Source: a virus
Taxonomy: Duplodnaviria > Caudoviricetes
Virus record (IMG/VR): IMGVR_UViG_3300048583_000219
Coordinates: 1 to 59,637 of that record
Length of the DNA: 59,637 nucleotides
Direction: 5' to 3' (one strand)
Below, piece by piece: positions 18,005 to 47,500 of this stretch. The notes below the pieces were generated by a model that saw only the letters and a program-made list of their open reading frames with translations, searched no databases and was not told where the DNA came from. How positions within the stretch are numbered: the stretch's first letter is position 1; the number at the start of each line of letters is the position of its first letter. Made by a program: the position numbers and the translations under genes.

Positions 18005-19051
18005 CTATTTGAAGAACGCCTTACCCTGCGCCTCGTTCACCGCCCGCCGGTAGTGGCGGAACAAGGTCGAGGATCCCGCCGCATGCCCGAGCGCCTGCTT
18101 GGCGGCATCCTCCCCAAACGCCGCGAGATAGTGGCTGGCGAACGTGTGGCGCAAGACATCGTTCATGTGGCCGATGCCGGCCGTCTTGCGAATCCTCGCC
18201 CAGCGACGTTTCCAGTTTGCCGGAGCCACCGGACCGGACTTCGGATGGTCTTTCAACTCGCGGCGCAACACCGGCTTGATCGGAATCAGGCGATCCGCGC
18301 CCGTCTTGCTGGCATCCTGCGGCACATAGATTTCCGCCTTGCCGACGTTCTGCCAAAGCAAGCGCGAGATTTCCCCCGTCTCAGCGTCCGGACGGATTCC
18401 GGCATACAGTAGCAGAGCGATGGCGCGGCGCTCGTCAGCGCCCTGACAGGCGGCAAGAACCGCCTTTTGCTGGTCGGGCGTGAGAATGTGAATCGTGGTG
18501 GATTTTCGGTGACGTTCTCGGAAGCCGATAATTGCCAGCACCCGCGCCGCGCGCATATCGATCGTCGAGCGGGACAGCGTTCTGTTTTCCTGCAACGCCT
18601 CCTCGATGCGTTCACGGTCGATCACCCCGCAGGCCAGCGGCATCAGTGACGGCACCCACCGCGGCAGCTTCTCCATGTCGTTGCGATACACGTCGCGCCA
18701 GTGCATCTCCCCCCAAAGCATCGCCCGTGCGTAGCGTTCCCGAAACGTCTCCTTGCTGGCGGTAGTGGCGATTCTGGCGACTGCCAGGCGAGCCGCCTCG
18801 ACGATCGAGACACCGGAGCCTTCGAGGATGCGCGCCGCCTCCTGTGCTTGGTTGGCGAGGGCAACCGGGATCATCCCCCCGCGCATGCCGGTCTTGTGAT
18901 TCTGCCGCAGACTGGCCGCGAATTTCTCGGCCGCGGTCTTACCCGTAAAGTATTTCCGCCGGCGCTTGCCGGTGGCGGTCATGTCCTTGGGGATCGAGAC
19001 CATCCACCCGCGGGGCGTTTCGATGGCATGGAATTGAGGGGTGCGAGCCAT
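18005..19051 (-). CDS. int: Phage tyrosine integrase
   Basis: LLYAGIRP, LRHTFASH, ALGH and RHY catalytic motifs; N-terminal arm-binding segment GKRRRKYF; adjacent to attP. Confidence 0.88.
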   Translation of the reverse strand: MARTPQFHAIETPRGWMVSIPKDMTATGKRRRKYFTGKTAAEKFAASLRQNHKTGMRGGMIPVALANQAQEAARILEGSGVSIVEAARLAVARIATTASKETFRERYARAMLWGEMHWRDVYRNDMEKLPRWVPSLMPLACGVIDRERIEEALQENRTLSRSTIDMRAARVLAIIGFRERHRKSTTIHILTPDQQKAVLAACQGADERRAIALLLYAGIRPDAETGEISRLLWQNVGKAEIYVPQDASKTGADRLIPIKPVLRRELKDHPKSGPVAPANWKRRWARIRKTAGIGHMNDVLRHTFASHYLAAFGEDAAKQALGHAAGSSTLFRHYRRAVNEAQGKAFFK

Positions 19052-19059
19052 GGGGGATG

Positions 19060-19254
19060 TCGCCACAATCGCCACTTGGCGGAATATCGGCTTGCATTTG
19101 CGTGCATCCGTCCGCACGCAAAATCAAGGAAAAACCGAGCCGACTGTCAGATTTGAACTGACGACCTGATCATTACAAATGGCATTTCGTCGATTGAAAA
19201 TCAATGGTTTGCAAGGGAGACGGGTGAAATCGCCACCATATCGCCACTTGGCGG
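19060..19254. repeat. Arm-type integrase-binding repeats flanking attP
   Basis: TCGCCAC at 19060 and 19230; TCGCCACTTGGCGG at 19069-19082 and 19241-19254. Confidence 0.6.
19137..19180 (-). other. attP core: 3' half of tRNA-Thr(UGU)
   Basis: Minus strand ATTTGTAATGATCAGGTCGTCAGTTCAAATCTGACAGTCGGCTC contains the anticodon loop (TGT), the T-arm and the acceptor strand. The 5' half of the tRNA is absent. Confidence 0.85.
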
Positions 19255-29604: not shown

Positions 29605-30041
29605 AACAGACGGTGACATATTTGAGGGAGGGCAGAAAGCTCCGCGCGACCGGCGTGATGGTGGCAAACGCTCCGAAGCAAGGTTTGGTGAAAGTGAAAC
29701 CCCACCGCGAAGATTGGGGGCATGTATGGATCACGCGCGAGGAAATCGCCGCAGGCCAAGGCAAGCCACTGGTTCAATCGCGCAAGCCCGCAAGCGAAAA
29801 CCCAAAGAAAACGCGCAAGCCGCGCGCCAAGAAACAGCCCCCGAAGCCACGCTGGCAACAGTTGATCCATGAGGTGAGAACGCTCGAAATCGAGCACGTT
29901 CCGGATGGGTGGCCGTGCGTGCGGATGCGGACACTCACCGAGCTTGCCAACGAACTCGAAGCGGCGCGGGCCAAACTGGCTGAGTTTCTTCCAGTCAACG
30001 CAGAGCTCTGGCACCGCCGGAGACGGCACACAAATCTATGA
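29601..30041 (+). CDS. Hypothetical protein bordering the cassette array; its C-terminus is encoded by attC1
   Basis: Reads through AGTCAAC as ...LPVN and stops at the ATGA inside attC1. Confidence 0.6.
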   Translation: MKQTVTYLREGRKLRATGVMVANAPKQGLVKVKPHREDWGHVWITREEIAAGQGKPLVQSRKPASENPKKTRKPRAKKQPPKPRWQQLIHEVRTLEIEHVPDGWPCVRMRTLTELANELEAARAKLAEFLPVNAELWHRRRRHTNL

Positions 30042-30122
30042 AACAAGAACCAAACACCGAGGCGGCGGAAACCGTCCAAACCACGAGCGTCCCGGCGGTT
30101 GTCCAGGAGCGACTTGTTGTGC
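29993..30122 (-). other. attC1 (distal end of the array)
   Basis: Plus strand AGTCAAC-gcaga-GCTCTGGCACCGCCGG...CCGGCGGTTGTCCAGGAGC-gactt-GTTGTGC. Confidence 0.8.
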
Positions 30123-30466
30123 CTCTTCCGTGTCCGTTTTGCGGCTATGAAGGAGTGCGAGTGCTGGAGTGCATCCGACTGAGCGTGTCTTGCGACCTGT
30201 GCCGCGGAATCGGGCCTGCTGCCGCCACCAGCCCCGAAGCTATCGAAAAATGGAACCAACGCCCCGCCGAAACGCTCATGTCTATCGACCGCACGCAAAT
30301 GCAGTCCGCGCTTCGAAAACTCGCAACGGCGGAATCGACCGGTGACTGGGGGAAAGATCTTGGGTGCATGCGAGAAATCGCACGCTTGGGGCTTTCTTGG
30401 CACAACGCAATAGGTATGGCAGCGGGAGCCGATGGATCGCCATCGTCAGCCAATGAAAAGCCTTAA
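30038..30466 (+). CDS. Cassette 1: Lar-family restriction-alleviation-like Zn-finger protein
   Basis: LPCPFCG...VSCDLCRGIGP...EAIEKWNQR. Starts in attC1 and stops in attC2. Confidence 0.65.
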   Translation: MKQEPNTEAAETVQTTSVPAVVQERLVVPLPCPFCGYEGVRVLECIRLSVSCDLCRGIGPAAATSPEAIEKWNQRPAETLMSIDRTQMQSALRKLATAESTGDWGKDLGCMREIARLGLSWHNAIGMAAGADGSPSSANEKP

Positions 30467-30494
30467 CCCGATTGCCATCACTCCCTTGTTATGC
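30400..30494 (-). other. attC2
   Basis: GCACAAC...GTTATGC with ATGGCAGCGGG/CCCGATTGCCAT arms. GCACAAC complements the GTTGTGC of attC1. Confidence 0.85.
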
Positions 30495-30517
30495 CTCTTC
30501 CGAATTACCAAACGACT

Positions 30518-30706
30518 ATGAAACCAACGCCAATGACTGCCGAAAGATACCTCGCAATTATCAATGATCTAATCCCGAAAGGCTGGATGCCGATTGGCCA
30601 GTTCGGGTCGATGACGTTCCGCCGAAACGGGAAAAACTACGACCTGTCCGCTGCGGATCTAGGTCAACTCGACCGCATCGAACGCGAGGGATTATTTTTG
30701 GCATAA
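30518..30706 (+). CDS. Cassette 2: small hypothetical protein
   Basis: MKPTPMTAERY...; its stop TAA lies within the GCATAAC core. Confidence 0.55.
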   Translation: MKPTPMTAERYLAIINDLIPKGWMPIGQFGSMTFRRNGKNYDLSAADLGQLDRIEREGLFLA

Positions 30707-30802
30707 CGCTGGGGGTATGGCGCGGGAACTAGCCGCGCAGGACTCAGAATCACCAAACCGCGACAACGGCTAGTTCCCGTTGCCATGACTCCCTTGTTAG
30801 CC
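30701..30802 (-). other. attC3
   Basis: GCATAAC...GGGAACTAGCCG/CGGCTAGTTCCC...GTTAGCC. Confidence 0.88.
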
Positions 30803-30813
30803 TTCTTTGAATT

Positions 30814-31101
30814 ATGACCGACGCACAAATAGCCTTAAAATTCTCGGACGATTACCCCTACGAAATCGACGAAGACACCAACCCTGGAGCGGACCTAAAG
30901 CCCGCCGACTGGGCACATCGTGCCGCCCGTGGAATAATGGCCGACATGAACGACAGGCGCGGGATCAAATGGGAAATCCAAAAGGTCGATATAGACACCC
31001 GGAAGGACATTGTGGCCGCGCTGGCTGCGATTATCCGCTTAGCGCATTCTGAGGCTAACGCAAAAAGTCCATCCGTGGACGAGAAAGGAACGAAACCATG
31101 A
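30814..31101 (+). CDS. Cassette 3: hypothetical phage protein
   Basis: DWAHRAARGIMADMNDRRGIKWE; tail and stop lie in attC4. Confidence 0.65.
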   Translation: MTDAQIALKFSDDYPYEIDEDTNPGADLKPADWAHRAARGIMADMNDRRGIKWEIQKVDIDTRKDIVAALAAIIRLAHSEANAKSPSVDEKGTKP

Positions 31102-31207
31102 AAGGCTGCATACGGTGTCACGGCCCGACCGACCACAAAGGCGACTGCGAGCGGTGCGACCGCGAAAGAACAGCGTCAGGGCCATCGGATGCGACGGCTT
31201 GTTCTCC
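31053..31207 (-). other. attC4 (long; its loop holds an RBS and start codon)
   Basis: GGCTAAC...GTCCATCCGTGG/CCAtCGGATGcGAC...GTTCTCC, with two extrahelical bases. Confidence 0.75.
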
Positions 31208-31403
31208 GTCTTATTCCGCTAGATTTCGACTCGGTCAAGACGCGGTGGAAATCCGCGTGCCGACTGGCGACATGGATAATCCGCACTGCTGGCACGGCCT
31301 CGATCTGCATACCGCAAAACAACTGCGGGACGATCTGTGCAAAGCCATCGACACCCTCGAAGCATTCCAAAATCTGCGCAAAGAGAATCCGGAGAACGCA
31401 TAA
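31098..31403 (+). CDS. Cassette 4: hypothetical protein with a CxxC...CxxC N-terminus encoded in the attC4 loop
   Basis: AAAGGA RBS and ATG 31098 inside attC4; ends ...ENA* in attC5. Confidence 0.55.
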   Translation: MKGCIRCHGPTDHKGDCERCDRERTASGPSDATACSPSYSARFRLGQDAVEIRVPTGDMDNPHCWHGLDLHTAKQLRDDLCKAIDTLEAFQNLRKENPENA

Positions 31404-31478
31404 GCTCATGGACGCCGACCTATTCACTCCGATTCAAGATGGACGCTCCTCGGCGTTCCATGCAGCGCCTGGTTCGGC
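31391..31478 (-). other. attC5
   Basis: GGAGAAC...GCTCATGGACGCCGA/TCGGCGtTCCATGcAGC...GTTCGGC. Confidence 0.85.
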
Positions 31479-32037
31479 GTTGGTGTGCGACGACACTGCT
31501 CCCGGCAAGCCCTATCTGGTGCCAATGACTCTGCGCAAAGCCAATGATTTCGTGGCCGCCCATCATCGCCACAACGGACGCACCGCCCGCAACGGCGGCA
31601 AGTGGTCCGCTGGCGTGGCCGTGGATGGAAAGCTCGTAGGCGTGGCTATCGTCGGAAACCCGCTGTCCGCGACACTGATGGACGGATGGACGGCCGAAGT
31701 GTTGCGCGTCTGCACCATCGAAGACGCACCGAAGGGAACCTGCTCGATGCTGTATCAAGCCTGCTGGCGGGCGTGGCGGGCAATGGGCGGTCGCCGCCTC
31801 ATCACCTACACGCTGCAATCCGAATCCGGCGCAAGCCTGCGAGGTGCCGATTGGCGAGTCGTCGGGCAGACAAAGCCAGTGAAGGACGGATGGCGGAAAA
31901 ACGACCATCTCAACGGAACCCGCACGCACTCGCCCGTCATGCTGGAGGTGAAGAACCGCTGGCAGCAAGATGACGGCTCTTATTCTTCGCCGAACGCAGA
32001 GGTGAGGCACGGCGCGAAGGACCCCGACCTCGACTAG
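31408..32037 (+). CDS. Cassette 5: XF1762/Mom-like GNAT-fold protein (possible DNA modification)
   Basis: ANDFVAAHHRH...GVAIVGNP...AEVLRVC...CSMLY...RAMGGRRLITYTLQSESGASLRGADW. Confidence 0.65.
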   Translation: MDADLFTPIQDGRSSAFHAAPGSALVCDDTAPGKPYLVPMTLRKANDFVAAHHRHNGRTARNGGKWSAGVAVDGKLVGVAIVGNPLSATLMDGWTAEVLRVCTIEDAPKGTCSMLYQACWRAWRAMGGRRLITYTLQSESGASLRGADWRVVGQTKPVKDGWRKNDHLNGTRTHSPVMLEVKNRWQQDDGSYSSPNAEVRHGAKDPDLD

Positions 32038-32074
32038 AAACTTTCCCGCCGTTGCCTCGACCGACTTGTTAGCC
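31989..32074 (-). other. attC6
   Basis: GCCGAAC...GGTGAGGCACGG/CCGtTGCCTCgACC...GTTAGCC, with canonical extrahelical T and G on the plus strand. Confidence 0.9.
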
Positions 32075-32110
32075 GTTCGGGGGACGCGGAAACACCAAAC
32101 AAATACGCAT

Positions 32111-32401
32111 ATGACACCAACCGAAGCCGCTACGGCGGACACAAAACAATGGAGAAAAGACCTCGACGGCGTGCTGCAAAGCATCAAGCGGGGGAGTGAC
32201 ACGAAGCGCGAAGTCCTCACCAGTGAGGATCACCCACGGGCAAGCCGTGAACGCTCGCTGGCCGTGACGAAACTCCAAGAAGCAATCATGTGGCTTGGAA
32301 TGGACCTCAAGGACATCGGGGAAACGCCGAACCCATACCCGCACAGCTACGACCCCGCGTCTCCGGTGATTGAACCGACGGCGGACGGATTGAAGCTGTA
32401 A
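32111..32401 (+). CDS. Cassette 6: Acb2/Tad1-like helical hairpin protein (candidate signalling-nucleotide sponge)
   Basis: SRERSLAVTKLQEAIMWL resembles the Acb2/Tad1-family RExSLAxTKLEEAxxW motif. Confidence 0.6.
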   Translation: MTPTEAATADTKQWRKDLDGVLQSIKRGSDTKREVLTSEDHPRASRERSLAVTKLQEAIMWLGMDLKDIGETPNPYPHSYDPASPVIEPTADGLKL

Positions 32402-32411
32402 ACACCAACCA

Positions 32412-32442
32412 AGCCGGAGAGTGGGTCTTCCATTCTCCGGCT
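32412..32442 (+). other. RNA hairpin after the cassette 6 gene, overlapping the attC7 core
   Basis: AGCCGGAGAGTGG-GTCTT-CCATTCTCCGGCT (13-bp stem, one G-U pair). Confidence 0.55.
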
Positions 32443-32525
32443 AACGCAATAGGTGAGGCACGGCGAGATAAGACGCCGCCTCACGAATAAACTTTCCCGC
32501 CGTTGCCTCGACCGTCTTGTTAGCC
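32439..32525 (-). other. attC7
   Basis: GGCTAAC...GGTGAGGCACGGCG/CGCCGtTGCCTCgACC...GTTAGCC. Confidence 0.9.
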
Positions 32526-32564
32526 GTTCGGGGGACGCGGAAACCACAACAAACCAGAACCAAA

Positions 32565-32771
32565 ATGCAACCATACCTAGACAAAGTATTCGATGAGTTC
32601 CGTGACTTGGAAAACAAGCTGAACGAACTCAGGGACTTCATGGAAAATCCCGAGCAGTGGAGAACAGTGAGTCCTGACAACCAAGAGCGGATGGAAATGC
32701 AGGCGAACGTCATGACGCTGTATCTGCACATCCTGAACAACCGCATCAAAACTTACAGCCCGACCGCATGA
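32565..32771 (+). CDS. Cassette 7 gene A: crAss001_48-like coiled-coil protein
   Basis: LENKLNELRDF...QANVMTLYLHILNNRI pattern. Confidence 0.55.
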   Translation: MQPYLDKVFDEFRDLENKLNELRDFMENPEQWRTVSPDNQERMEMQANVMTLYLHILNNRIKTYSPTA

Positions 32772-32831
32772 AATAATACCGGACCATGTTGGTGACGCCA
32801 CCGATATGGTCCGGGCAACCGCAAAACACCC

Positions 32832-33428
32832 ATGGAAAAAGAAATACAGACTCACGAAAAGAAAACCGATATTCCCGAAGACATGTGGGAAGCCGTCGGC
32901 GCATTACGCGGCGCACTCGCGGACAATCCCTGCGTCATTCTGGACGAGGCCGACCCGGAAGACGGCGACCGGCACTACTTCTTCTCAGACCCCGACTTGT
33001 ATGGGGCCATTCAGGACGTTGTAGAGAACCTGCCGGGGAAAACATTCCAAGGACACAGCTACGTGTCACTCGCGTATGCGCTGATGAAGCATGGAGTAGT
33101 ATGCGAAGCGGCAATCGAAGATTCAACGGCATTCGACAACGGGAAAACGCTGACCGGAATCTGCCGTGCATTCTGCGACCTCCAAGAAGACTCACCCGCA
33201 AAAAACATAATCACCGATAAAGAACGCATGGACTTCCTCGAATCGCTCGGGGATGCGCCTACTGACACCGACCTCCATATTCACCCGGAATGTGTCGCGT
33301 CCTTCAATATCTACCTTCGCGGGAACCGTCACAAGCCGGGCTTGGAGAATAACATTGCAGCACGGCAACACCACGGAATCACCTTCCGGGCGATGATCGA
33401 CGATGCAATTTTTTCGGCTAACCACTGA
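32832..33428 (+). CDS. Cassette 7 gene B: hypothetical protein; stop supplied by attI
   Basis: Ends ...FSANH* through GGCTAAC-CAC-TGA; contains a DKERMDFLE motif. Confidence 0.6.
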   Translation: MEKEIQTHEKKTDIPEDMWEAVGALRGALADNPCVILDEADPEDGDRHYFFSDPDLYGAIQDVVENLPGKTFQGHSYVSLAYALMKHGVVCEAAIEDSTAFDNGKTLTGICRAFCDLQEDSPAKNIITDKERMDFLESLGDAPTDTDLHIHPECVASFNIYLRGNRHKPGLENNIAARQHHGITFRAMIDDAIFSANH

Positions 33429-33450
33429 TTCAACCGCGTGCGCGGTTTTA
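33416..33450 (-). other. attI-like site
   Basis: Minus strand ...GGTTGAATCAGTG-GTTAGCC is a core with no attC hairpin, just upstream of intI. A second GTTRRRY (GTTGAAT) and the palindrome AACCGCG-TG-CGCGGTT lie nearby. Confidence 0.7.
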
Positions 33451-33468
33451 TTCCAAACCCTCAAATTT

Positions 33469-34443
33469 ATGACCAGAACCGAAACCCTCGCCAAATTCGA
33501 TATGATCGCTCGCCGCCGGATTGCTCTGACAACAGAGCGCTCTTATCGGTCATGGATCGTGAAATATCTGTCATTCCTCGGGACGGAAAAGGCCAAGGCA
33601 GCGACGACTTCCGAAGCGAAGATGGAAGTTTTCCTAAGCTCCATGGCTCACGAGGACTATTCGAGTGTCAGCCAGAATCAGGCGTTCAACGCACTTCTGT
33701 TCCTTTACCGCCATGTTCTCAAAATCGAAATTGGAGACGTTTCGGCTTTGCGCTGTCGCAAGAAGCAGAAGGAACGCTATATCCCGACACAGGCGGAAAT
33801 CTCCGCAATGTTCGAGCACCTGAAAAACACTCCGACTTACAACGTCCGCTTGCTGGCGGCTTTGCTCTATGCGTGCGGCTTGCGGGTGCAATCCGGATGC
33901 GAACTTCGCATCAAGGATTTCGACTTGGAACGGATGGTTCTGACAATCCATGAAGACAAGGGGGACAAGGACCGCCAAGTTTCGATTCCGGAATTATTGT
34001 TGCCAGCGCTTCGCCGCCAGATTTCCCGCGCATCGGCCCTTGCCGAAATCGACATTGCAGCGCTGCAACCGGTGCAACTTCCTGGACGTCTCGACCGGAA
34101 ATACCCAGCCAAACAGTTCGAAGTCGGTTGGCACTTCCTGTTTCCGTCTCCTGCACCGTGCGCTCATCCAAGAACCAAGAAAATGGTCCGCTGGTGCATG
34201 GGACCAGACGTGATTCAGCGGGCAATCAAGGATGCGGCAAAACGTGCGGGCATTCCCGGCAAGGTGACTCCTCATTGCCTGCGCCATTCGTTTTGCAGCG
34301 ATCTGTTGGATTCAGGCCACAACCCGCGCCGGGTGCAAGAGGCTATGGGACACGCGGACATTAGGACCACGATGGGATACGCCCGGAAAGACTGCCTGAG
34401 CCTGCCAAGCCCGATTGAAACCATGAAACTTCGTTCCGCATGA
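33469..34443 (+). CDS. intI: Integron integrase
   Basis: SQNQAFNALLFLYRHVL, LLYACGLR, KGDKDR, the IntI-specific insertion VQLPGRLDRKYP...WHFLFPS...HPRT, VTPHCLRHSF, MGHADIRTTMGY and a C-terminal SP. Confidence 0.92.
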   Translation: MTRTETLAKFDMIARRRIALTTERSYRSWIVKYLSFLGTEKAKAATTSEAKMEVFLSSMAHEDYSSVSQNQAFNALLFLYRHVLKIEIGDVSALRCRKKQKERYIPTQAEISAMFEHLKNTPTYNVRLLAALLYACGLRVQSGCELRIKDFDLERMVLTIHEDKGDKDRQVSIPELLLPALRRQISRASALAEIDIAALQPVQLPGRLDRKYPAKQFEVGWHFLFPSPAPCAHPRTKKMVRWCMGPDVIQRAIKDAAKRAGIPGKVTPHCLRHSFCSDLLDSGHNPRRVQEAMGHADIRTTMGYARKDCLSLPSPIETMKLRSA

Positions 34444-34784
34444 AGGCAGAGCGCACCAACGACAAGTGGACCGAATACGAAGCTCCGTGGGTTTCGGAAG
34501 TGGAGGGCGAGCCGTTCACCTACCGGGTGCAGTCGCGGTCTGAATCAGGCATGGCGCACACGGTTGATCTGACACAGCGCGGCGGGCATGGTGCCTGCAC
34601 ATGCACCTTCTTTCAAATTCGCGCCAATTCGAACTTCCGCCGGCATGGTCAACACATTCCATACGCCCCGAAGCGGGAAGGGGTGAGTGAGTGCATACAC
34701 ATCAGGTCCGCCCTCGATTTCTTCCATGTCAACGTCACTATCCCCATGCTCGCCTCATTCAAAAACGGAATCTCGAAACCATGA
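34440..34784 (+). CDS. SWIM-type zinc-finger protein
   Basis: YRVQSRS...HTVDL...CTCTFF...ECIHI; ATGA-coupled to intI. Confidence 0.55.
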   Translation: MKAERTNDKWTEYEAPWVSEVEGEPFTYRVQSRSESGMAHTVDLTQRGGHGACTCTFFQIRANSNFRRHGQHIPYAPKREGVSECIHIRSALDFFHVNVTIPMLASFKNGISKP

Positions 34785-34957: not shown

Positions 34958-35770
34958 ATGGCTGAAACAACTGAAATCTCGTGGTGCGATGCCACAATCA
35001 ATCTCTGGTGGGGATGTTCCAAAGTCTCCCCAGGCTGCGCCAACTGCTATGCCGACAGCTTCTCGAAGCGATGGGGCAAGGACATTTGGGGCAAAGGCAA
35101 GCCGCGTGAGGATCACCGGGCCGGCGCGATCAAGACGGCGATGAAGCTGAATCGCCAAGCGGAGAAGGAAGCAAAGCGCCTGCGCGTGTTCTCAGCCTCT
35201 ATGTCGGACTGGCTGGATGACGAGGTGCCGAAAGAGTGGCAAAACGACCTGCTGCGACTTATCGAAGCCACGCCTCATCTTGATTGGCTTCTCCTTACCA
35301 AACGTCCGGAAAATTGGGAGGGCGTGATGACAAACGCCCTGCTCGATGGTGTGGATATGGTGCATGAGTGGGTCAACGGCAGGCCGCCTGCAAACGTCTG
35401 GATCGGCACCACCGTCGAGGACCAGGCGCGCGCCGACGAACGGATTCCGCTGCTGTTGGACATCCCGGCCATGGTGCGCTTCCTCTCGTGCGAACCTCTT
35501 TTGGAAGCCGTGGACGTGGCATGCCATTTCCGCTGCCACTTCACCGCAAACGGCAGATGGCCCGGACTGAACTGGATCATCTGCGGCGGCGAGTCCGGTC
35601 CCGGCTTCCGACCATTCAATCCCGATTGGGCGAGAAGCCTGCGCGACCAGTGTAAGGCCGCCGGAGTGGCGTTCCACATGAAGCAGATGGGCGGAATGCG
35701 CCCAAACACGATGCCGCCAATACCGGACGACCTGATGATCCGTGAATATCCAACCAGCACAATCCCATGA
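34958..35770 (+). CDS. Phage Gp37/Gp68 (DUF5131) radical-SAM-like protein
   Basis: GCSKVSPGCANCYA, SMSDW, LLTKRPE, FLSCEPLL and WIICGGESG. Confidence 0.88.
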   Translation: MAETTEISWCDATINLWWGCSKVSPGCANCYADSFSKRWGKDIWGKGKPREDHRAGAIKTAMKLNRQAEKEAKRLRVFSASMSDWLDDEVPKEWQNDLLRLIEATPHLDWLLLTKRPENWEGVMTNALLDGVDMVHEWVNGRPPANVWIGTTVEDQARADERIPLLLDIPAMVRFLSCEPLLEAVDVACHFRCHFTANGRWPGLNWIICGGESGPGFRPFNPDWARSLRDQCKAAGVAFHMKQMGGMRPNTMPPIPDDLMIREYPTSTIP

Positions 35771-41450: not shown

Positions 41451-41499
41451 GAGAGTCCCGCGGTTTCCTGGCTGGTTGTCCGCGGGACTCTCTCATTTT
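41451..41499 (+). terminator. Intrinsic terminator after terL
   Basis: GAGAGTCCCGCGG...CCGCGGGACTCTC followed by TCATTTT. Confidence 0.65.
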
Positions 41500-41526
41500 G
41501 GACGGTAGGACCAACCGTCCGATTTC

Positions 41527-41565
41527 GCTGCGCCCGTTATCCGTCGACCGCGGTTGTGGCATTCT
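41527..41565 (+). promoter_or_regulatory. Phage-specific promoter, copy 6 (giant gene)
   Basis: GCTGCGCCCGTT, 21 nt, CATTCT, 7 nt, then ATG 41573. Confidence 0.75.
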
Positions 41566-41572
41566 CCCCGGC

Positions 41573-44500
41573 ATGCCAAAATACAACCGGAGCTTGCCCG
41601 AGGATGAAATTGCTTCCTACCTCGCCCAGGCCAGACAAGGAACCGCCGGGGTCAACCCTCGCGCGCAAACGCTCGCCCGTTCGTCCAGCAACCGCCGCGC
41701 CCAGCGTTTCGGACAGGACATGATGGCGGACCAGATGGAGCAAAACGCCCGGAATGCGGAGGACATCGCGCGGGACCAGGATCGAGCGGCCAAAGAGGCG
41801 GAAGCCGCGGCGAAAGCCCAAGCCACAGAGCAAGCCAAGGCAGAGCGAGCCGCGCATTACCGCAATGTCAGGGAGGCCGAAGCCCAAGGGGCGAAGATTG
41901 TCACCGATATTCCGACCGGCAGGCGGACGGTGGCGACACATCCGGATGGTGGCACGATGTTTGAGAAAGGCGAGGTAGGAGAGCCATTCATCCAACCCAC
42001 TGCGGAAGCTGCCATTTCCAGCGTGCCGGGGATTGGCGACATGATGCGACTCACGCGGCCAGCGGACAAGCAGACACTCGACCAGACAACCGAGGTGGCG
42101 CAAAAGTTCCGGGATGACCGCGGGCGCGAAACGATCGCGCCGTTGCCATCGGACACCGACCCCAAGACCGGAGAAATCACCGGCAAGCTGAAAGACACGT
42201 TTGGTCAGACGGTCCCCGTGAAGCTCGGAACGGATCAACGCATTGCTGCGAGCAACCAGCGGGAAGCCGCCATCAAGGCCGAGAAACAAAAGTTGGACCT
42301 TCGGGAAAACCAGTTGAACCAAGCCAAAGCGCTCTTTGACCCGCAGTGGGCACCGGTGAAGAAGGAGTTCGATGCGCTCGGCAAGGAGTTGAACAGCTTC
42401 CCGAAGACGTTCCGCAAAAACCAAACAACCGGCAAGTGGGAGAAGATCGACCCGAAGACCGATAGCGGCATCCCATACGACCCGCGGGAATTGACAGTGT
42501 GGCAGAAAGAGCGCGATGCCCTTCAAACCCGGTATGAGGCCGCCAAGGCGAAGCACGACCAGATGCTTCCCGCCGCGGAGAACTTCAACCGGAACGAGCG
42601 GGAGATTTCACAGAAGCGCCTCAAACTCGAAGCGGAGCGGCTGAAACTGGCAAGCGGACGCCCCCTTGACGAGGATCTGGCGCAACTACTCGCGGACAAG
42701 CCAGAAAGCGTAAAGCCCGAGGACGTGGCAGCGTTTGGAGACAATCAGCCCCCGGCCAATTCATCCGAACAGCCTGTTGGCGCGAATAACGCACCCGCAG
42801 GAGAGAGCCGCCTGCCGCGAGTCTTGGACGCAATGGACGCCGCCGAAGCTCGGATTCGCCGCGATGCGGCCATCGGAGACATTGACCCGGCGACAGCGGA
42901 GCGCAAGACGCAAGCCCTCGCCGCCCTTAAGCAACAAACGGTAGAACAGGCGAAAACCGAAGCCGCGGCGCAACTTGAAGCGCAAGGCAGGGAAATCGCC
43001 TCGCAGTTCATCGGCACTGGCGTTCGCTCGCAAGAACTGACCGGCGCGAAGCCTGGCAACTATGCCGGCATCAAGAACGAGATTTCCGAGATGGGCGCGT
43101 TCATCATGGGCAAGGACAACACGCCCGAGAAGTCCGCGCAAATGTTCCGCTTGGCGGGCAATGACCTCGATGGAGCCATCAAGCTCGCGGAGGGCGAGAC
43201 GAAAAAGAACCTCACGGCCATGAAAGCCGCCTTCGACAAGGCGGGAATCAAGCCGGAGGATCGCACGCGCATCATTCAGGACGCCGCCAAGTCGCAGGCA
43301 TGGACCGAGAAGGACAAAGACAACCTGCGCAAGCTCTCCACCGGCGATCTGGTCATCAATCCGGGACGGGTGTTCGGCCAGAAAGACGCGATGATTGCCG
43401 AAATCAACGCTTCAGACGCCACACCGGAGGCCAAAGCGGCAGCGGTCGAGCGGCTGGATGCCATGCGTGAAGCCATGGAGGGCAAGCTATTCCGCGCCAC
43501 GGTGGCGGCGGATGATGATTTCGAGGACTTCGCCAATTCCCAATTCAAGGCCGGAAACCGCGACAAGTCTGCCATTCTCGACCAGTGGGCGGAGCAACAG
43601 AAAGCCCGCGGATGGGTCTTCAAGGCCACCGATGCGGTCACAGAAGGCGTGAAAACAGGCTCGGTCGGCGTGGTGAAAACGCTCGTCGGCGGGGCAGCGG
43701 GCGTAAGTGCGCTCGTCGGTGCGGACGGCGCTGCGAAGTCCTTGGGACAGGCGGCTTCCGACATGGGCAACGTGATCCAAAGCGAGAAAGAAGCGGCCAA
43801 GCTCCGCGGAATGACTGGCTCTTTCGGTATCGCAAGCGACCTCACCGACACGGTGGTTCAGATGGCTCCGATGATCGCAGGCGGAACGGTTGCCGGCGGG
43901 CTGAAAGGCATGTCTGCCATCGCCACCCGAGGGATGTCCGCCTACGGATGGGCGGGGGCGCAAGGCTACGAATCCAAGCTGGCGGATGCGGTTTCCATTG
44001 CGGAACAGCAAAAAGGCTCTGCCCTCACCGGCGAGGAAATCGCCGCAGTGCTTGGACGCACGGATACCCAGGTTGCGGCATTCCTCAACGGCGCACAGAC
44101 GGCCATTCTCGCCGCGGCCATGCCGAAAGGTGCGGAACGTGTGGCGCTCGGCGTGAAGTCCGGCAGCATGACGGTTTCTGATTTCCTGCGCCAAGGCGGC
44201 ATGCGGGCCATCAAGGATGGCACGCTTCGCACGGAATTGAAGGCGATGGGCAAGACGATCTTCGCGGATGCCACCGATGAAGCGCTCGAAGAGTTCTCTA
44301 ACCAAGTCCTAGACGGCATGATTTCCGTCGCTGCGCTGGATCAGGAATTGAAGCTCGGGGATCTACTGGAAGAGTCATTCAAGGCCGGCGCGCTCGGCGG
44401 ACTGGTTGGCGGCGGTCTCCCGCAGGTTTATCGAGGCGAAACCAAGGCAGACAAGCACAAGCAGATGGTCGCCGCCCTGCAACAACAGACGCTTGGCACG

Positions 44501-47500
44501 CCCCCGCCCCGGATGGTTTCCACGGCGCTTGCCACCCTCGACCCGCAGGCCAAGGCACCGGACCCCGCGGAAGTCGCAGCCGCCCGCAAGCTCGTCGCGC
44601 CAAGCGTGGCACCGCTCAAGGCAATCGAAACCCTGCGCACGGATCACGAAGCCGCCATCAAGGCAAAGGACTACACCGGAGCGGCCAAGATCGACGAGGA
44701 AATCAACAGGACTTTCACCGAAGCACAAACAGCGGATGCGAAGGATGCCGCGGAAGCAGTGCTTCTCACCCGCGAGCTTGCCGGACTCGAAGAACAGGCC
44801 GCAAGCGACGTTTGGCAGGCGAATCAAGACCTCAACGCCGCCCGCGCCACTGGCGACAAGCAGGCGATCGCAGCGGCGGAAGTCGCGCTTGAACAGGTCC
44901 AGCAAGCCGCCCCGAACGTGCCGCTTGCCCGTGCTGCCGTGAAACTCGCCACGGGTCTAAGCCCTGCCGCTCTTACCGATGCGGAACTCCGCGCCGTGGG
45001 CTACAAACCCAGCGAGGGAGGTCCGCCCGTGCCGATGAGTCCGAAGGAACTGGCAGACAGTGGACTTACCAAGCCGCTGGTCCGCTTCGATTCGGCGGAC
45101 GGATCGCCAATCCTTCTCGACGAGGCCCGCGCCCAGGTCGCGCAAACCTCCGCCTTGGCCGGAAACCGCATCAAGCTCGGTGAACAGGCTGCCATGGAGG
45201 CCGCGCAAGCCCGCGTCGATGCTGCCCAACCCTCACCCACCGCACCCAATGAGCAAGACCCGCAAGGAACACACGGACCGCAAGCCACTCCGCAAGATTC
45301 ACAACCCGCACCCGCCAACCCGAACGCACCGGGTGGAGGATATGGAACTGACCAACGAACCGCTACGTCCGGAACCGAGGCGAAGAAACGGAAAGTTGGA
45401 GAGGGAGGCACGACGGGCAGCACGGCAGGAGCGTCCGGGGCTGCCGTAGAGGCTGGCATTTACGAGTCCGCCCGCGCCGTGGATCCGTCCTTGCCGGAAA
45501 TTCCTGCCCGAGTGGCGGCAGCGTTCCAAGCTGGCGAACCGGTTTCCGTCTCGATGCAGAAAGCCAGCGGGATCGACGTGCCGGAGGGCTACACGCGCCA
45601 AGGGAACGTGTGGACCCCTCCGGACGGACAAACCGTGTCCAAACCCGGACAAACCGTGTCGGAAGCGCCTGCTGGACTCGCACAAGCCGCCAAGGTGGCG
45701 GAATCCGTCAAGGCTGCCGTCATCAAGGCCATGCCCGCCCTGAAAGGCCGGATCGAGATTTCCCAAACGGGCGAGGACGGCGGCGGCGCGGACCTGCTCA
45801 TTGAGTCCGGAGTCATCCGCCTGAACATCCCAGCCATCCAGCGGGCGATCACCCGCGCCGGCGGGGACGTGGCTGCGGTCACGGAATATCTGGAAACCAT
45901 CGTGGCGAGGCATGAGGCGGTTCACGTTGTGCAGACGGAAGCCATCCGCGAGGAATGGAAAGCCGCGGGAAGCCCCGGCGAGTTCATGGACTTCTACCGG
46001 TCCTTCTATGAAGACCTCGCGGGGGAACTGCTCACCCCGGAAGCGGTCAAAGCCGCCCGCCGCATCTACGGCAAGGACAAGAAGACCGGAGAATGGCACT
46101 TCGACAAGATCCCGACCGACTACCAGAAAGCCGCGGAGTTCACGCGGATGCTCGTCGAGGCCAAACTTGACGGCAACACCGAGGCATTCTCGGAACTGTT
46201 CCGCGCCGTCAAGACCCAGGGGGCACGTTCGAAGCTCGCCAAGCTCATCCGCAAGGCGGTCGAGATCCTGACCGGCATGAAGCTCTCGCCCGCGGCGGAA
46301 GCGCACGTTGCCAAGCTCAAGGAACTGTATGCGGAACTCAGCGCCCCGGCAGAAAATGCACAAAAACCGCAAGGAAAGGCCGAATCTGCGGAAAAACCTG
46401 CAATTTCCGGCCTCCGCATCGAAACCAGCGGCAAAACCGCCCGCGTTCTCAACGGGACGGAAGTCCTGTGGGAAGGTCCGGCGGATCAGGCGCAAGCCGA
46501 GCTTGCCAGCCTCAAAGCGGCTCAAGCCTCCCCTATGTTCCTCACCGGGACCGCCATCAAGTCCGCTTTGGAGCGCTTCCCGCGCCTCGGCGGCAAGCTC
46601 CGCGCCGAACTCGAAGCCGCGGCGGATGAAGTCACGGACGCGATCGAAGCCCTGCCCGCCGGTGAACGTGCCCAGGCAGCCGAACAGGCAATTGCGGACC
46701 GGATCAACCTGATCGCGGACAGGGAAGGGGAGCGCACCGGCAAGAAGCGGGAGGAAATCATCGAGGGATTCCGCGCCGTGGCAGGCAAGCGGGCCGCCAA
46801 GCAGGCCGCCAGCATCGAGCAAGCGGTGATCGGCAGCGAAGCCCCGGAAGTTCCCGCGGGCAAGCCAGAGCGCCGCGACACGCCCAATTCCGAAATGACC
46901 GTTGATGTCGTATCAACGTATCTTGATATTTCCCAACTCGTCGGATCGTCGGACCCGCTCTTTCCCGGTGGGGCACTGCAACCGCGCAACCGCGCCGGAC
47001 AGGCCAGCCAGAACCAGCGGGAGGAAATGGTTCAGAACATCCGCGACAAGGACAACCAACATCGGCGCTACATCGAGGGTGCAACCACGGATTCAGGCCG
47101 GATGGTCGTCGCGCCGCTCTTCGGGGCGGACGGCAAGCACATGACCAACGAGGCGGGCAAGCCGATGTTCTACGTCCTGTCCGGCAATGGCCGGCGCAAT
47201 GCGCTCCAAGAAGCCGCTACGCGAAAAGTAGCTGCCAAGGTCACTGCCGGTTTCCGCGAGACTGCCGCGGCCGAAGGGATCGACGTGGAGGGCATGACCC
47301 TGCCGGTTCCAGTGTCCGTCTTCGTGCCGAAGAGCGCCAAGGAGGCGATCGATCTGGCGGAATACTCGAACCGTGACGCGCAACTCTCTGTTTCGAACAC
47401 CGAACAGGCCAACCGGGACGCTGCCAGCATCGAAAAGGCCAAGATTCTCAAGTTGTGGGAGCCGGACGCCACCGGAGACGCTGGAGCGGCCTCCAACCGG

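What the first reader, a model, noticed from the sequence alone, without database searches (positions are those of the whole stretch)
30038..32771. Cassette cargo looks like counter-defence: Lar-like, Mom/XF1762-like and Acb2/Tad1-like genes
Seen: motifs PCPFCG...AIEKWN (30038), HHRH...ITYTLQSESGASL (31408) and SRERSLAVTKLQEAIMW (32111). Established: Lar alleviates type I restriction, Mu Mom modifies DNA against restriction, Acb2 and Tad1 sequester CBASS or Thoeris signals, and bacterial integrons are reported to carry anti-phage cassettes. Inference: this array is a shufflable anti-defence library, and the unannotated cassette genes (30518, 30814, 31098, 32565, 32832) are candidates for new anti-defence proteins.
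Basis: inference. Interest (0 to 1): 0.85.

Follow-up and report, generated by a model that had tools for sequence, protein, structure and literature searches.

The report
Phage integron carrying counter-defence cassettes
A complete bacteriophage genome carries its own integron, and half of its swappable gene cassettes belong to protein families that phages use against bacterial immunity, which suggests that viruses also keep exchangeable gene libraries for the arms race.

Summary

**What it is.** Window 29993-34443 is a complete integron inside a complete 59.6-kb phage genome. It has intI with the integron-specific extra domain, an attI and six attC sites. All eight cassette ORFs lie on the attC bottom strand, which is inverted relative to textbook integrons.

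**Cargo.** Four of the eight ORFs fall in conflict-related families:
- A: Lar.
- E: XF1762. It has a GNAT fold, its best structural match is phage Mu Mom, and the positions of Mom H58, R111 and S124 are conserved.
- F: Acb2/Tad1 hairpin domain, with a predicted homodimer.
It is PF21825, the 'Sequestin' family, shown in 2025 to sponge 3'cADPR and block Thoeris.
- B, C, D and H remain unknown.

**Turnover.** Six different relatives with 78-93% identical IntI share only attI and intI with the window. None of the eight cassette ORFs recurs in them. One relative carries three DNA methyltransferases instead. Metagenome contigs hold cassettes B and G+H in other contexts, with breaks at the predicted crossover.

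**Limits.** No function was tested. F is not shown to be an Acb2 or Tad1 orthologue. The activity of the Lar family is ambiguous.

**Verdict.** This is a new variant of a known kind and of high interest.

The parts
29993..30123 (+). attC0, the outermost attC (131 nt). It belongs to cassette A and covers the start of ORF A.
   Evidence: Model R1 scores 36.0 bits, E 2.5e-8. The ends read AGTCAAC...GTTGTGCC.
30038..30466 (+). ORF A, 142 aa, Lar-family zinc ribbon (residues 30-75) with an unassigned C-terminal half. Its last ~20 codons run into attC1.
   Evidence: Pfam PF14354 34.2 bits against a cut-off of 28.6. TIGR03655 37.8 against 39.6. phrog_599 E 4.2e-8.
30400..30495 (+). attC1, belonging to cassette B.
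   Evidence: R1 72.1 bits. A contig of run X1 matches 30400-30709 with no difference and diverges to the left of 30400.
30518..30706 (+). ORF B, 62 aa, no family. Its TAA stop lies inside the GCATAA of the next R box.
   Evidence: No hit. The cassette is found at 99-100% identity in runs X1 and X7.
30701..30802 (+). attC2, belonging to cassette C+D.
   Evidence: R1 72.7 bits. The fold shows single-base T and G bulges on the 3' arm.
30814..31101 (+). ORF C, 95 aa, no family.
   Evidence: No hit. The Atlas nearest clusters are unnamed and mostly viral, score 0.92.
31098..31403 (+). ORF D, 101 aa, Cys-rich N-terminus, no family. It overlaps C by ATGA. A weak attC-like match covers 31053-31204.
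   Evidence: No hit. R1 gives 15.7 bits, E 0.015, at 31053-31204.
31391..31478 (+). attC3, belonging to cassette E. It contains the start codon and first ~24 codons of E.
   Evidence: R1 51.2 bits.
31408..32037 (+). ORF E, 209 aa, XF1762 family, a Mom-like GNAT fold. Its last 14 codons run into attC4.
   Evidence: NF045478 156.8 bits against 50. The model has pLDDT 84. The best PDB fold match is Mu Mom 8BV8, E 1.4e-8. Family-invariant H53, R100 and S113 align with Mom H58, R111 and S124. 24 of 25 differences to metagenome contigs fall at third codon positions.
31989..32074 (+). attC4, belonging to cassette F.
   Evidence: R1 92.9 bits on +, against 16.1 on the - strand. Nearly the same attC plus leader precedes F homologues in L025 and L026.
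32111..32401 (+). ORF F, 96 aa, Acb2/Tad1-hairpin-domain protein and candidate signal sponge.
   Evidence: PF24729 29.4 bits against 27. Tad1 8KBB E 0.0011 over 28 aa. Two-helix model, pLDDT 77. Homodimer score 0.65 against best control 0.02.
32439..32525 (+). attC5, belonging to cassette G+H.
   Evidence: R1 88.4 bits. Contigs of X2 and X4 diverge to the left of 32443-32455.
32565..32771 (+). ORF G, 68 aa, PF21825 ('crAss001_48', the Sequestin sponge family).
   Evidence: PF21825 53.3 bits against 24.8, covering 3-62 of 68 aa. The family's anti-Thoeris activity is described in passages of bioRxiv 10.1101/2025.07.12.664507.
32779..32814 (.). Perfect 16-bp hairpin between G and H. It is not an attC.
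   Evidence: Inverted repeat I11. Fold energy -15.9. No R1 match. A contig of X4 spans 32514-33030 across it.
32832..33428 (+). ORF H, 198 aa, no family, in the same cassette as G. Its last two codons and TGA stop are supplied by attI.
   Evidence: No hit. Atlas gives unnamed viral clusters. No viral-contig relatives. PADLOC gives only AbiEi at 14 bits.
33420..33468 (+). attI. It begins at the AAC crossover and includes a small AACCGCG/CGCGGTT hairpin.
   Evidence: In six relatives, conservation starts exactly at AAC (alignment A5). blastn similarity to relatives starts at 33408-33420.
33469..34443 (+). intI, the integron integrase, 324 aa.
   Evidence: VchIntIA 2A3V E 6.1e-43 over residues 35-327, including the IntI-specific insertion. 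TIGR02249 260 bits against a cut-off of 265.

Best explanation
**What it is.** Window 29993-34443 is a complete integron resident in a temperate tailed phage. The likely host is in Verrucomicrobiota. The parts are intI, a 49-nt attI at its 5' end, and six attC-bounded cassettes carrying eight ORFs.

**Orientation.** The attC sites have the textbook orientation relative to intI. Every ORF, however, lies on the attC bottom strand. The cassettes are therefore read in the same direction as the upstream replication genes and as intI itself. They are most likely read as part of that phage transcription unit rather than from a Pc promoter (inferred).

**Cargo.** The cargo is mainly counter-defence (inferred from family membership):
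- Lar-type restriction alleviation (A).
- A Mom-like GNAT that would modify phage DNA (E).
- Two small oligomeric sponges for immune nucleotide signals (F: Acb2/Tad1 hairpin; G: Sequestin, anti-Thoeris).

**How it works.** IntI swaps cassettes at the AA|C of the R boxes. Related phages therefore carry quite different sets, including orphan DNA methyltransferases, drawn from a shared pool.

**Shown versus inferred.** Shown: the anatomy, the family memberships, the cassette turnover and the cassette breakpoints. Inferred: the activities, the expression route and recombination in vivo.
For: **Phage.** The window is a complete virus record with terminal repeats. It has portal, major-head and terminase matches and a separate tyrosine integrase at 18005-19117.

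**IntI.** It aligns to VchIntIA over its full length, including the extra domain.

**attC sites**
- There are 6 window sites, all on the + strand (36-93 bits). The same sites score 16 bits or less on the - strand.
- The model hits attC of aadA2 at 44.5 bits in a class 1 integron oriented the same way, where aadA2 is on the opposite strand.
- Across 46 sites, all 14 stem pairs show compensatory changes. 97.9% of cells are paired, against 29-55% when partners are slid. AAC and GTT are invariant in all 46.
- There were 0 hits in 80 unrelated viral loci totalling 404 kb.

**Cargo.** PADLOC gave no credible defence hit for any of 10 proteins.

**Turnover**
- Similarity to 8 loci (6 different arrays, IntI 78-93% identical) is confined to 33408-34443. 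None of the 8 cassette ORFs recurs in them.
- L002 carries C5, SAM and N6 methylases.
- 7 of 57 cassette-region ORFs in related arrays hit methyltransferase families.

**Mobility**
- Contigs from 4 runs of 4 studies hold B or G+H at 98-100% identity, with breaks at 30400, 32443 and 33422.
- One contig joins 33422 to an attC0-like site instead of attI.
- The same attC plus leader precedes F homologues in phages whose IntI is only 31% identical.
Against: **Function and activity**
- No function, expression or recombination was measured.

**Weak points in the family assignments**
- F matches Tad1 over only 28 residues. No Acb2 or Tad1 fold match reached significance (Foldseek PDB best E 0.64). The BFVD best hit is merely another hairpin-domain protein.
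- E scores 12.9 bits against Pfam Mom's 27.1. The hhalign probability is only 5%, E 0.0074. Generic GNATs score almost as well as Mom, 2e-7 against 1.4e-8.
- Lar is below NCBIfam's cut-off, 37.8 against 39.6. Rac Lar (RalR) is described as a DNase toxin (abstract).
- IntI is 5 bits under TIGR02249's cut-off.

**Unknown or biased cargo**
- 4 of 8 ORFs are unknown.
- At most 18 of 57 ORFs in related arrays have any Pfam family. None of 5 in the closest relative L098 does.
- None of 80 E-family loci is next to an attC, so such genes are usually not cassettes.
- The F loci were picked through F, so the recurrence of F in arrays is biased.

**Host context**
- No CBASS cyclase (SMODS) was found in the two lysogen genomes. 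Only large TIR_2 proteins were found.
Confidence: 0.7

Rival explanations
1. The integron is real, but its cargo is ordinary phage accessory ('moron') genes with mixed or unknown roles. On this reading the counter-defence labels are family names rather than functions, and the array is not specialised for immune evasion.
For: - 4 of 8 ORFs have no family.
- At most 18 of 57 ORFs in related arrays have any Pfam hit, and none of 5 does in L098.
- Related arrays also hold HTH regulators, an RNA ligase, a PAPS reductase and a Pol-beta-like nucleotidyltransferase.
- F, E and A each fail at least one membership test.
Against: - 4 of 8 ORFs fall in conflict-linked families. One of these (PF21825) has been tested experimentally.
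- Methyltransferases are the commonest recognised cargo in relatives.
- F-like and G-like genes are also neighbours in 8 of 80 viral loci. That adjacency fits known sponge clustering and fusions.
Confidence: 0.2
2. The cassettes serve the lysogen rather than the phage, acting as toxin-antitoxin, exclusion or defence genes. This is the role seen in bacterial chromosomal integrons, where inverted cassettes are typically toxin-antitoxin pairs.
For: - Rac Lar (RalR) is a DNase toxin of a type I toxin-antitoxin pair (abstract of PMC4041452; NF007260 hit E 0.0038).
- GNAT enzymes can be toxins (recalled).
- Bacterial integrons store defence systems (abstract of bioRxiv 10.1101/2024.07.02.601686).
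- The phage is temperate.
Against: - PADLOC gives no credible defence match for any of 10 proteins.
- G's family blocks Thoeris when expressed from phages.
- E's nearest structure is the anti-restriction enzyme Mom, with its catalytic Arg and Ser conserved.
- All ORFs are co-directional with the replication operon. None shows a promoter of its own above shuffle expectation (2 found against 3.9 expected).
Confidence: 0.07
3. The array is an inactive relic. On this reading it is a piece of a host chromosomal integron picked up by the phage, as reported for Vibrio phages, and no longer recombines.
For: - Qi et al. 2023 (PMC9892861, passages) found that the few complete integrons in phage genomes included fragments of host chromosomal integrons and class 1 mosaics.
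- attC0, attC3 and the 31053 site are degenerate at 36, 51 and 16 bits.
- Several ORFs run over cassette borders.
Against: - intI is intact and 78-93% conserved in six different phage or prophage contexts, while every cassette differs.
- Both genome hits lie in prophage-like regions, with Mu-type genes in L088.
- Cassettes occur in other contexts with breaks at the crossover.
- More distant IntI (31-36% identity) sit in the same geometry in other viral contigs.
Confidence: 0.03

Closest known systems
Sedentary chromosomal integrons as stores of anti-phage defence cassettes (Darracq et al.; bioRxiv 10.1101/2024.07.02.601686, abstract and passages read)
   Same: It has an intI-attI-attC platform with many small cassettes. 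The cargo is tied to phage-host conflict, and cassettes are exchanged as units.
   Different: - Here the platform sits in a phage genome.
- The cargo points to counter-defence, not defence (PADLOC gave no credible hit for any of 10 proteins).
- All ORFs are on the attC bottom strand and co-directional with intI.
- The array is short, at six cassettes.
Integrons and attC clusters in phage genomes (Qi et al. 2023, PMC9892861; abstract and passages read)
   Same: Integron parts occur in phage genomes, and DNA methyltransferases are among the phage-borne cassettes. The Shewanella prophage M16-3 listed there also carries an integron integrase.
   Different: - That survey found 3 complete integrons in 10,705 genomes, described as host-integron fragments or class 1 mosaics.
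- It does not mention anti-defence (0 occurrences of 'anti-defen').
- In M16-3 the genes upstream of intI lie on the opposite strand.
- Here a dedicated IntI clade recurs in several Verrucomicrobiota phages with inverted cassettes and sponge or Mom-like cargo.
Phage anti-defence islands, and anti-defence genes found in integron cassettes (Tesson et al. 2024, PMC11724313; passages read)
   Same: Small counter-defence genes are clustered. That paper states that anti-defence genes are also encoded in integrons.
   Different: Here the cluster is bounded gene by gene by attC sites and has its own recombinase, inside a virus.
Sequestin sponges, Pfam PF21825 (bioRxiv 10.1101/2025.07.12.664507; passages read)
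   Same: G is a 68-aa stand-alone protein that matches the whole profile (53.3 bits). It has K7, E11, Q46 and R60 where SequestinB has R7, E11, Q45 and R59. This comparison is by position only, not by alignment.
   Different: Binding of 3'cADPR by G is untested. G sits in an integron cassette together with an unknown 198-aa gene.
Phage Mu Mom, the tRNA-dependent adenine-modifying GNAT (PMC13219725, abstract and passages read; PDB 8BV8)
   Same: E has a GNAT fold with Mom as its best structural match. E's family-invariant H53, R100 and S113 align with Mom H58, R111 and S124.
   Different: - E is only 13% identical to Mom over the structural alignment.
- It is below Pfam Mom's cut-off and belongs to the uncharacterised XF1762 family.
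- The Mom D149/R151 region was not aligned.
- There is no Com-like regulator next to it.
Acb2 and Tad1 signal sponges (abstracts; PDB 8KBB and 7UAV)
   Same: F is a short helical protein with the shared hairpin-domain motif (...SRE.S.A.TK..EA.MW.G) and a predicted symmetric homodimer.
   Different: - F lacks Tad1's N-terminal domain.
- It matches no Acb2 chain by sequence.
- The hexamer state and ligand pockets were not tested.
Lar / RalR of the E. coli Rac prophage (family names; abstract of PMC4041452; the restriction-alleviation experiments are recalled, not read)
   Same: A has the CPFCG...C..C...AIE.WN zinc-ribbon core of the family.
   Different: A is twice as long (142 aa), with an unassigned C-terminal half that partly overlaps attC1. 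It is below NCBIfam's cut-off. The family's activity is described in two different ways.

Membership tests
Integron (complete) | A tyrosine recombinase carrying the IntI-specific additional domain and the catalytic residues | tested here: met
   The alignment to VchIntIA 2A3V (E 6.1e-43) runs through the insertion (query ...LPGRLDRKYPAKQFEVGWHFLFPS...). It also covers the LR..., H..R and terminal Y blocks. TIGR02249 scores 260 bits, 5 below its cut-off.
Integron (complete) | attC sites: imperfect hairpins with an AAC/GTT core and extrahelical bases on one arm | tested here: met
   There are six sites at 36-93 bits. Strand discrimination is 93 against 16 bits. The model cross-hits attC of aadA2 at 44.5 bits. 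All 14 stem pairs covary over 46 sites.
Integron (complete) | attI next to the 5' end of intI, with the variable array starting at the crossover | tested here: met
   Six relatives align from exactly AAC onward and are unrelated before it. blastn similarity covers only 33408-34443.
Integron (complete) | Cassette ORFs on the attC top strand, read from Pc away from intI | tested here: not met
   All 8 ORFs lie on the strand that the model and the aadA2 reference identify as the bottom strand. They are co-directional with intI.
Integron (complete) | IntI-mediated excision and insertion of cassettes | not testable with these tools
   The support is indirect. None of the 8 cassettes is shared with relatives, and cassettes B and G+H occur in other contexts with breaks at the R boxes.
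Lar restriction-alleviation family (PF14354 / TIGR03655) | Profile match over the curated cut-off | tested here: inconclusive
   Pfam 34.2 bits is above 28.6. NCBIfam 37.8 bits is below 39.6.
Lar restriction-alleviation family (PF14354 / TIGR03655) | Alleviation of type I restriction | not testable with these tools
   No assay was possible. The founding member is also reported as a DNase toxin.
XF1762 family (NF045478) | Profile match over the curated cut-off | tested here: met
   156.8 bits against 50, over residues 37-168.
Mom family (PF25680) | Profile match over the curated cut-off | tested here: not met
   12.9 bits against 27.1.
Mom family (PF25680) | GNAT fold closest to Mom, with the essential Arg and Ser (Mom R111, S124) | tested here: met
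   Foldseek's top hit is 8BV8, E 1.4e-8, TM 0.57. hhalign pairs R100 with R111, S113 with S124 and H53 with H58. All three are invariant in 40 family members. The hhalign probability is low (5%).
Mom family (PF25680) | Essential R151 (and D149) of Mom | tested here: inconclusive
   The hhalign alignment stops at Mom residue 127. E139 is invariant at about the right spacing, but it was not aligned.
Acb2/Tad1 sponges | Hairpin-domain profile (PF24729) over the cut-off | tested here: met
   29.4 bits against 27, on residues 39-62 only. Tad1 8KBB E 0.0011 for the single sequence and 4e-4 for the profile.
Acb2/Tad1 sponges | Whole-protein similarity to a solved Acb2 or Tad1 | tested here: not met
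   No Acb2 chain appears at E up to 10 by sequence. No Acb2 or Tad1 is among the Foldseek PDB hits, best E 0.64.
Acb2/Tad1 sponges | Homo-oligomer with pockets between protomers | tested here: inconclusive
   The dimer model scores 0.65 against a best control of 0.02. In the calibration, that mark was reached by 20 of 30 proteins solved as pairs and by 1 of 23 solved as single chains. The runs agree in 100% of contacts and partner pLDDT is at least 70. The hexamer state and the pockets were not modelled.
Sequestin (PF21825) | Full-length profile match over the cut-off | tested here: met
   53.3 bits against 24.8, protein residues 3-62 on profile positions 2-60 of 61.
Sequestin (PF21825) | Conserved pocket residues (SequestinA E12, Q47, R61) | tested here: inconclusive
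   G has E11, Q46 and R60 at positions within one residue of those quoted in the paper. No Sequestin sequence was available to align.

The most novel reading that the evidence does not exclude
Phage integrons may be the viral mirror image of the bacterial defence 'biobank'.

- **Timing.** The cassettes are inverted, so they and intI would be transcribed together from the phage's own early or replication operon. Every cassette would then be expressed whatever its position. Recombination would fire during infection, when single-stranded DNA is abundant.
- **Exchange.** Phages of one community would trade counter-defence cassettes (signal sponges, DNA modifiers, orphan methylases) through a shared attC pool.
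- **Consequence.** The unknown cassettes would be an enriched source of new anti-defence proteins. These are B, C, D and H here, plus dozens in relatives.
Probability: 0.45. Interest if true: 0.9.

Novelty: new variant of a known kind. Interest (0 to 1): 0.8.

Why it matters
Integrons are known as bacterial devices, used for antibiotic resistance and, since 2024-25, for storing anti-phage defences. This window shows a complete integron that belongs to a phage lineage rather than being a stray host fragment. Its cargo points to the opposite side of the arms race.

- **A mechanism for rapid change.** It would give phages site-specific, gene-by-gene exchange of counter-defences. This differs from the homologous recombination usually invoked for anti-defence islands.
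- **A discovery filter.** Any ORF bounded by these attC sites in viral contigs becomes a candidate immune inhibitor.
- **An unusual architecture.** All ORFs are inverted and co-directional with intI. This recurs in every array examined, which raises testable questions about how integron expression and recombination are coupled to a viral life cycle.

Tried and rejected
**Structure searches for F.** Foldseek against the PDB gave nothing significant (best E 0.64). BFVD gave only another 'hairpin domain-containing' protein (E 1.2e-3). The pdb_via_wide library was not on the machine.

**Context of close F homologues.** I used the search for related loci on viral contigs instead.

**H and C.**
- H had no relatives in viral contigs.
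- Atlas gave only unnamed viral clusters for H and C.
- The PADLOC hit of H to AbiEi (14 bits, no stretch) was rejected as noise.

**Crude attC finder.** A first regex-plus-folding attC finder was far too noisy or too strict. It was replaced by the covariance model.

**G-H hairpin.** I considered the hairpin at 32779-32814 as a seventh attC and rejected it. It gets no R1 match, and contigs carry G and H together.

**IntI as lysogeny integrase.** I considered this and rejected it as a necessity, because a second tyrosine integrase lies at 18005-19117.

**Host immune genes.** TIR_2 proteins exist in both lysogen genomes, but they are long (474-1088 aa) and not shown to be Thoeris. SMODS was not found. 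Neither result bears on the verdict.

**Expression.** No RNA holder was listed for the stretch.

**Parts without contig cover.** Most of A, parts of E and F, and intI had no cover in the four runs. This says nothing about absence.

**Weak joints.** I do not build on 30408>30793, 31420>32443, 31081>31182 or 31206>31392. Each has a side of 25 letters or fewer.

**Prior art.** Four full-text searches and passages of five papers found no description of a phage-resident integron as an anti-defence library. Subscription journals and supplements were not searchable. Table S1 of the Sequestin preprint (its IMG/VR homologues) could list this very protein, and I could not see it.

Full report
**The observation.** All three motifs and all eight ORFs are at the coordinates given (starts and stops checked). 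The matches are far beyond chance.
- ORF A (30038-30466): Pfam Lar_restr_allev at 34.2 bits against a cut-off of 28.6.
- ORF E (31408-32037): NCBIfam XF1762_fam at 156.8 bits against 50, and phrog_1384 'Mom-like DNA modification protein' at E 1.4e-31.
- ORF F (32111-32401): Pfam Acb2_Tad1_hairpin at 29.4 bits against 27.
- B, C, D and H: nothing in Pfam, NCBIfam or PHROGs better than E 0.06.

**The surroundings.** The window is a whole virus record with direct terminal repeats, rated complete. It has matches to portal, major head protein and terminase. Upstream of the array, on the same strand, lie a YqaJ-type exonuclease, a RecU-like protein, a DUF1376 protein and a DnaB helicase. A separate tyrosine integrase sits on the minus strand at 18005-19117.

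**Is it an integron?** Yes.
- *Integrase.* The ORF at 33469-34443 aligns with the solved integron integrase VchIntIA (2A3V) at E 6.1e-43 over residues 35-327. The alignment includes the insertion that only integron integrases have. It scores 260 bits on TIGR02249, 5 below the curated cut-off.
- *attC model.* I built a covariance model (R1) from four window repeats and one each from two relatives. It finds six sites in the window: 29993-30123, 30400-30495, 30701-30802, 31391-31478, 31989-32074 and 32439-32525. All are on the + strand at 36-93 bits, while the same places on the - strand reach 16 bits at most.
- *Specificity.* Without having seen it, the model also finds the 60-nt attC of aadA2 in a class 1 integron (44.5 bits). 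It finds nothing in 80 unrelated viral loci totalling 404 kb.
- *Covariation.* Over 46 sites from the window and 15 other loci, all 14 stem pairs show compensatory changes. 97.9% of cells pair, against 29-55% when partners are slid. AAC and GTT are invariant. That alignment was fitted to the model, which favours it.

**Orientation.** I oriented the class 1 reference with intI1 on the + strand, as in the window. There aadA2 and dfrA12 lie on the - strand. The + strand of attC_aadA2 folds with single T and G bulges on its 3' arm, and the window's attC2, attC4 and attC5 do the same.
- The attC sites therefore have the textbook orientation relative to intI, and the + strand is the recombinogenic bottom strand.
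- All eight ORFs are on that strand. This is inverted relative to textbook cassettes and co-directional with intI.
- In + coordinates each cassette is an attC followed by its ORF or ORFs, ending in ...AA of the next R box. The units are A; B; C+D; E; F; G+H.
- Starts of A and E lie inside their attC. The ends of A, D, E and H run a few codons into the next site.

**attI.** Aligning the 110 nt before intI in six relatives shows unrelated sequence up to AAC and near-identity from AAC onward. blastn similarity between the window and all eight relative loci is confined to 33408-34443.

**The cargo.**
- *E.* Its AlphaFold model is confident (pLDDT 84). Its best PDB match is the crystal structure of Mu Mom (8BV8, E 1.4e-8, TM 0.57), just ahead of generic GNAT acetyltransferases at about 2e-7.
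  - A profile of 40 family members aligned to Mu Mom pairs H53, R100 and S113 with Mom H58, R111 and S124. All three are invariant in the family.
  - R111 and S124 are reported as essential for Mom catalysis (PMC13219725, abstract and passages).
  - The alignment is weak (E 0.0074, probability 5%). Pfam's Mom model is not passed (12.9 against 27.1 bits). E is therefore 'Mom-like', not a Mom family member.
  - Contigs from two wetland runs carry about 92%-identical copies, and 24 of 25 listed differences fall on third codon positions. E is thus a gene under purifying selection.
- *F.* It belongs to a large family, with 2308 hits. It is predicted as two long helices (pLDDT 77).
  - It matches solved Tad1 only over its second helix (28 residues, E 0.0011; profile E 4e-4).
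  - No Acb2 chain and no significant fold match was found.
  - A homodimer model passed its controls. The score was 0.65 against a best control of 0.02. In the calibration, that mark was reached by 20 of 30 proteins solved as pairs and by 1 of 23 solved as single chains. The runs agree in 100% of contacts and pLDDT is at least 70. This supports oligomerisation but does not show it.
It matches the whole of PF21825 (53.3 bits against 24.8).
  - Passages of bioRxiv 10.1101/2025.07.12.664507 report that 10 of 13 tested PF21825 proteins inhibit type I Thoeris and that the family ('Sequestin') binds 3'cADPR.
  - They also report that E12, Q47 and R61 of SequestinA are required. G has E11, Q46 and R60. 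This is by position only, not by alignment.
  - F-like and G-like genes are direct neighbours in 8 of 80 other viral loci.
- *A.* It has the Lar zinc-ribbon core but is below NCBIfam's cut-off (37.8 against 39.6). The founding member has also been described as a DNase toxin (abstract of PMC4041452).
- *Defence models.* PADLOC gave no credible hit for any of 10 proteins.

**Relatives.**
- IntI at 78-93% identity occurs in four viral contigs, four metagenome contigs and two Verrucomicrobiota genomes, Luteolibacter marinus and Haloferula luteola. The Luteolibacter copy lies beside Mu-type transposition genes.
- None of the window's eight cassette ORFs occurs in any of these eight loci, which represent six different arrays.
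- L002 carries a C5 DNA methylase, a SAM methyltransferase and an N6 methylase, each preceded by an attC.
- L004 has at least eight attC sites. L088 has four. L098, with 93% identical IntI, has three and five ORFs without any family.
- Of 57 cassette-region ORFs from 14 loci, 7 hit DNA or SAM methyltransferase families. One each hit RNA ligase, PAPS reductase and Pol-beta thumb. At most 18 hit anything.
- Among 80 viral loci found through F, 13 have attC hits. All 28 hits are on the gene strand. Four of these loci have a more distant IntI (31-36% identity) downstream on the same strand. The inverted geometry is therefore a property of a wider clade.
- The attC plus leader before F and G is almost identical to that before F homologues in L025 and L026, with identity starting at AAC.

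**Direct signs of cassette mobility.** Contigs of four runs from four studies (wetland, aquatic and viral metagenomes) were laid on 29900-34500.
- A 750-nt contig of X1 matches 30400-30709 (cassette B) without a single difference and is unlike the window to the left of 30400.
- In X2 and X4, contigs cover 32443-33422 (cassette G+H) at 98-99% identity. They diverge to the left of 32443-32455 and stop matching at 33422.
- One X2 contig continues from 33422 into an attC0-like site instead of attI.
- These are contigs, so they show presence and joins, not absence.

**Mechanism proposed.**
- *Shown:* the integron anatomy, the inverted ORFs, the family memberships, the complete cassette turnover between close relatives, and cassette-sized units in other contexts.
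- *Inferred:*
  - The array and intI are read through from the replication operon. The consensus scan found no excess of promoter-like sites (2 against 3.9 expected) and no strong + strand terminator within the array.
  - IntI exchanges cassettes during infection.
  - The cargo counters restriction (A, E, and the methylases in relatives) and nucleotide-signal immunity (F, G).

**Novelty.**
- Integrons in phage genomes have been reported. Qi et al. 2023 found 3 complete ones in 10,705 genomes and five methyltransferase cassettes, with no mention of anti-defence.
- Anti-defence genes have been noted in integron cassettes (Tesson et al. 2024).
- Bacterial integrons are known defence stores.
- Four searches found no description of a phage-lineage integron with inverted cassettes and counter-defence cargo. 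I rate it a new variant of a known kind.

Noticed in passing
L004:15024-15110 and L004:15314-15353: About 4-5 kb downstream of intI, this relative has a second copy of an attC almost identical to the one at 7806-7892. It also has a 40-nt stretch 92.5% identical to the window's attI. This could be a second platform, a duplication or a prophage boundary made by IntI.
   Followed up: no
window 32100-32404: One contig each in runs X2 and X4 joins 32100/32103 to 32404. The attC4 leader runs straight into the tail of cassette F without the 300-nt F ORF, or with other letters in between ('between: not known'). This may be an empty or re-filled cassette.
   Followed up: no
window 30362-30823 and 31440-31593: In the viral metagenome X4 the summed contig depth over attC1, attC2 and attC3 is 115-708. 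Over the cassette bodies that are covered it is about 4. This suggests many different cassettes with these attC types in that sample.
   Followed up: no
L047, L060-L064, L069, L086 (about 5000-5400 in each): A PF21825-like gene follows directly after the F-like gene in 8 of 80 viral loci, and none of the eight is among the loci with an attC hit. This suggests an F-G sponge pair that predates capture into cassettes.
   Followed up: partly
window 34958-35770; L003:6918-8653: A DUF5131 gene lies just downstream of intI in the window. In L003 a DUF5131 gene lies upstream of intI, next to a weak TET-associated-glycosyltransferase-like gene. These are possible DNA-modification genes beside the integron.
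   Followed up: no
window 18005-19117 (-): A second tyrosine recombinase (Phage_integrase, 34 bits) is probably the lysogeny integrase.
   Followed up: no
window 41498-59635 (+): An open frame of more than 6000 codons runs off the end of the window.
   Followed up: no
L042:3164-3844 and L042:6308-7264: In a distant array with its own IntI, cassette-region ORFs hit RNA ligase and PAPS reductase families. These may be tRNA-repair or DNA-modification counter-defences.
   Followed up: no
L126, L127 (3001-3567): The closest viral relatives of E (78% identity) align from residue 16, which lies inside the part of E encoded by attC3. Yet these loci have no attC hit. This bears on how the E cassette arose.
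   Followed up: no
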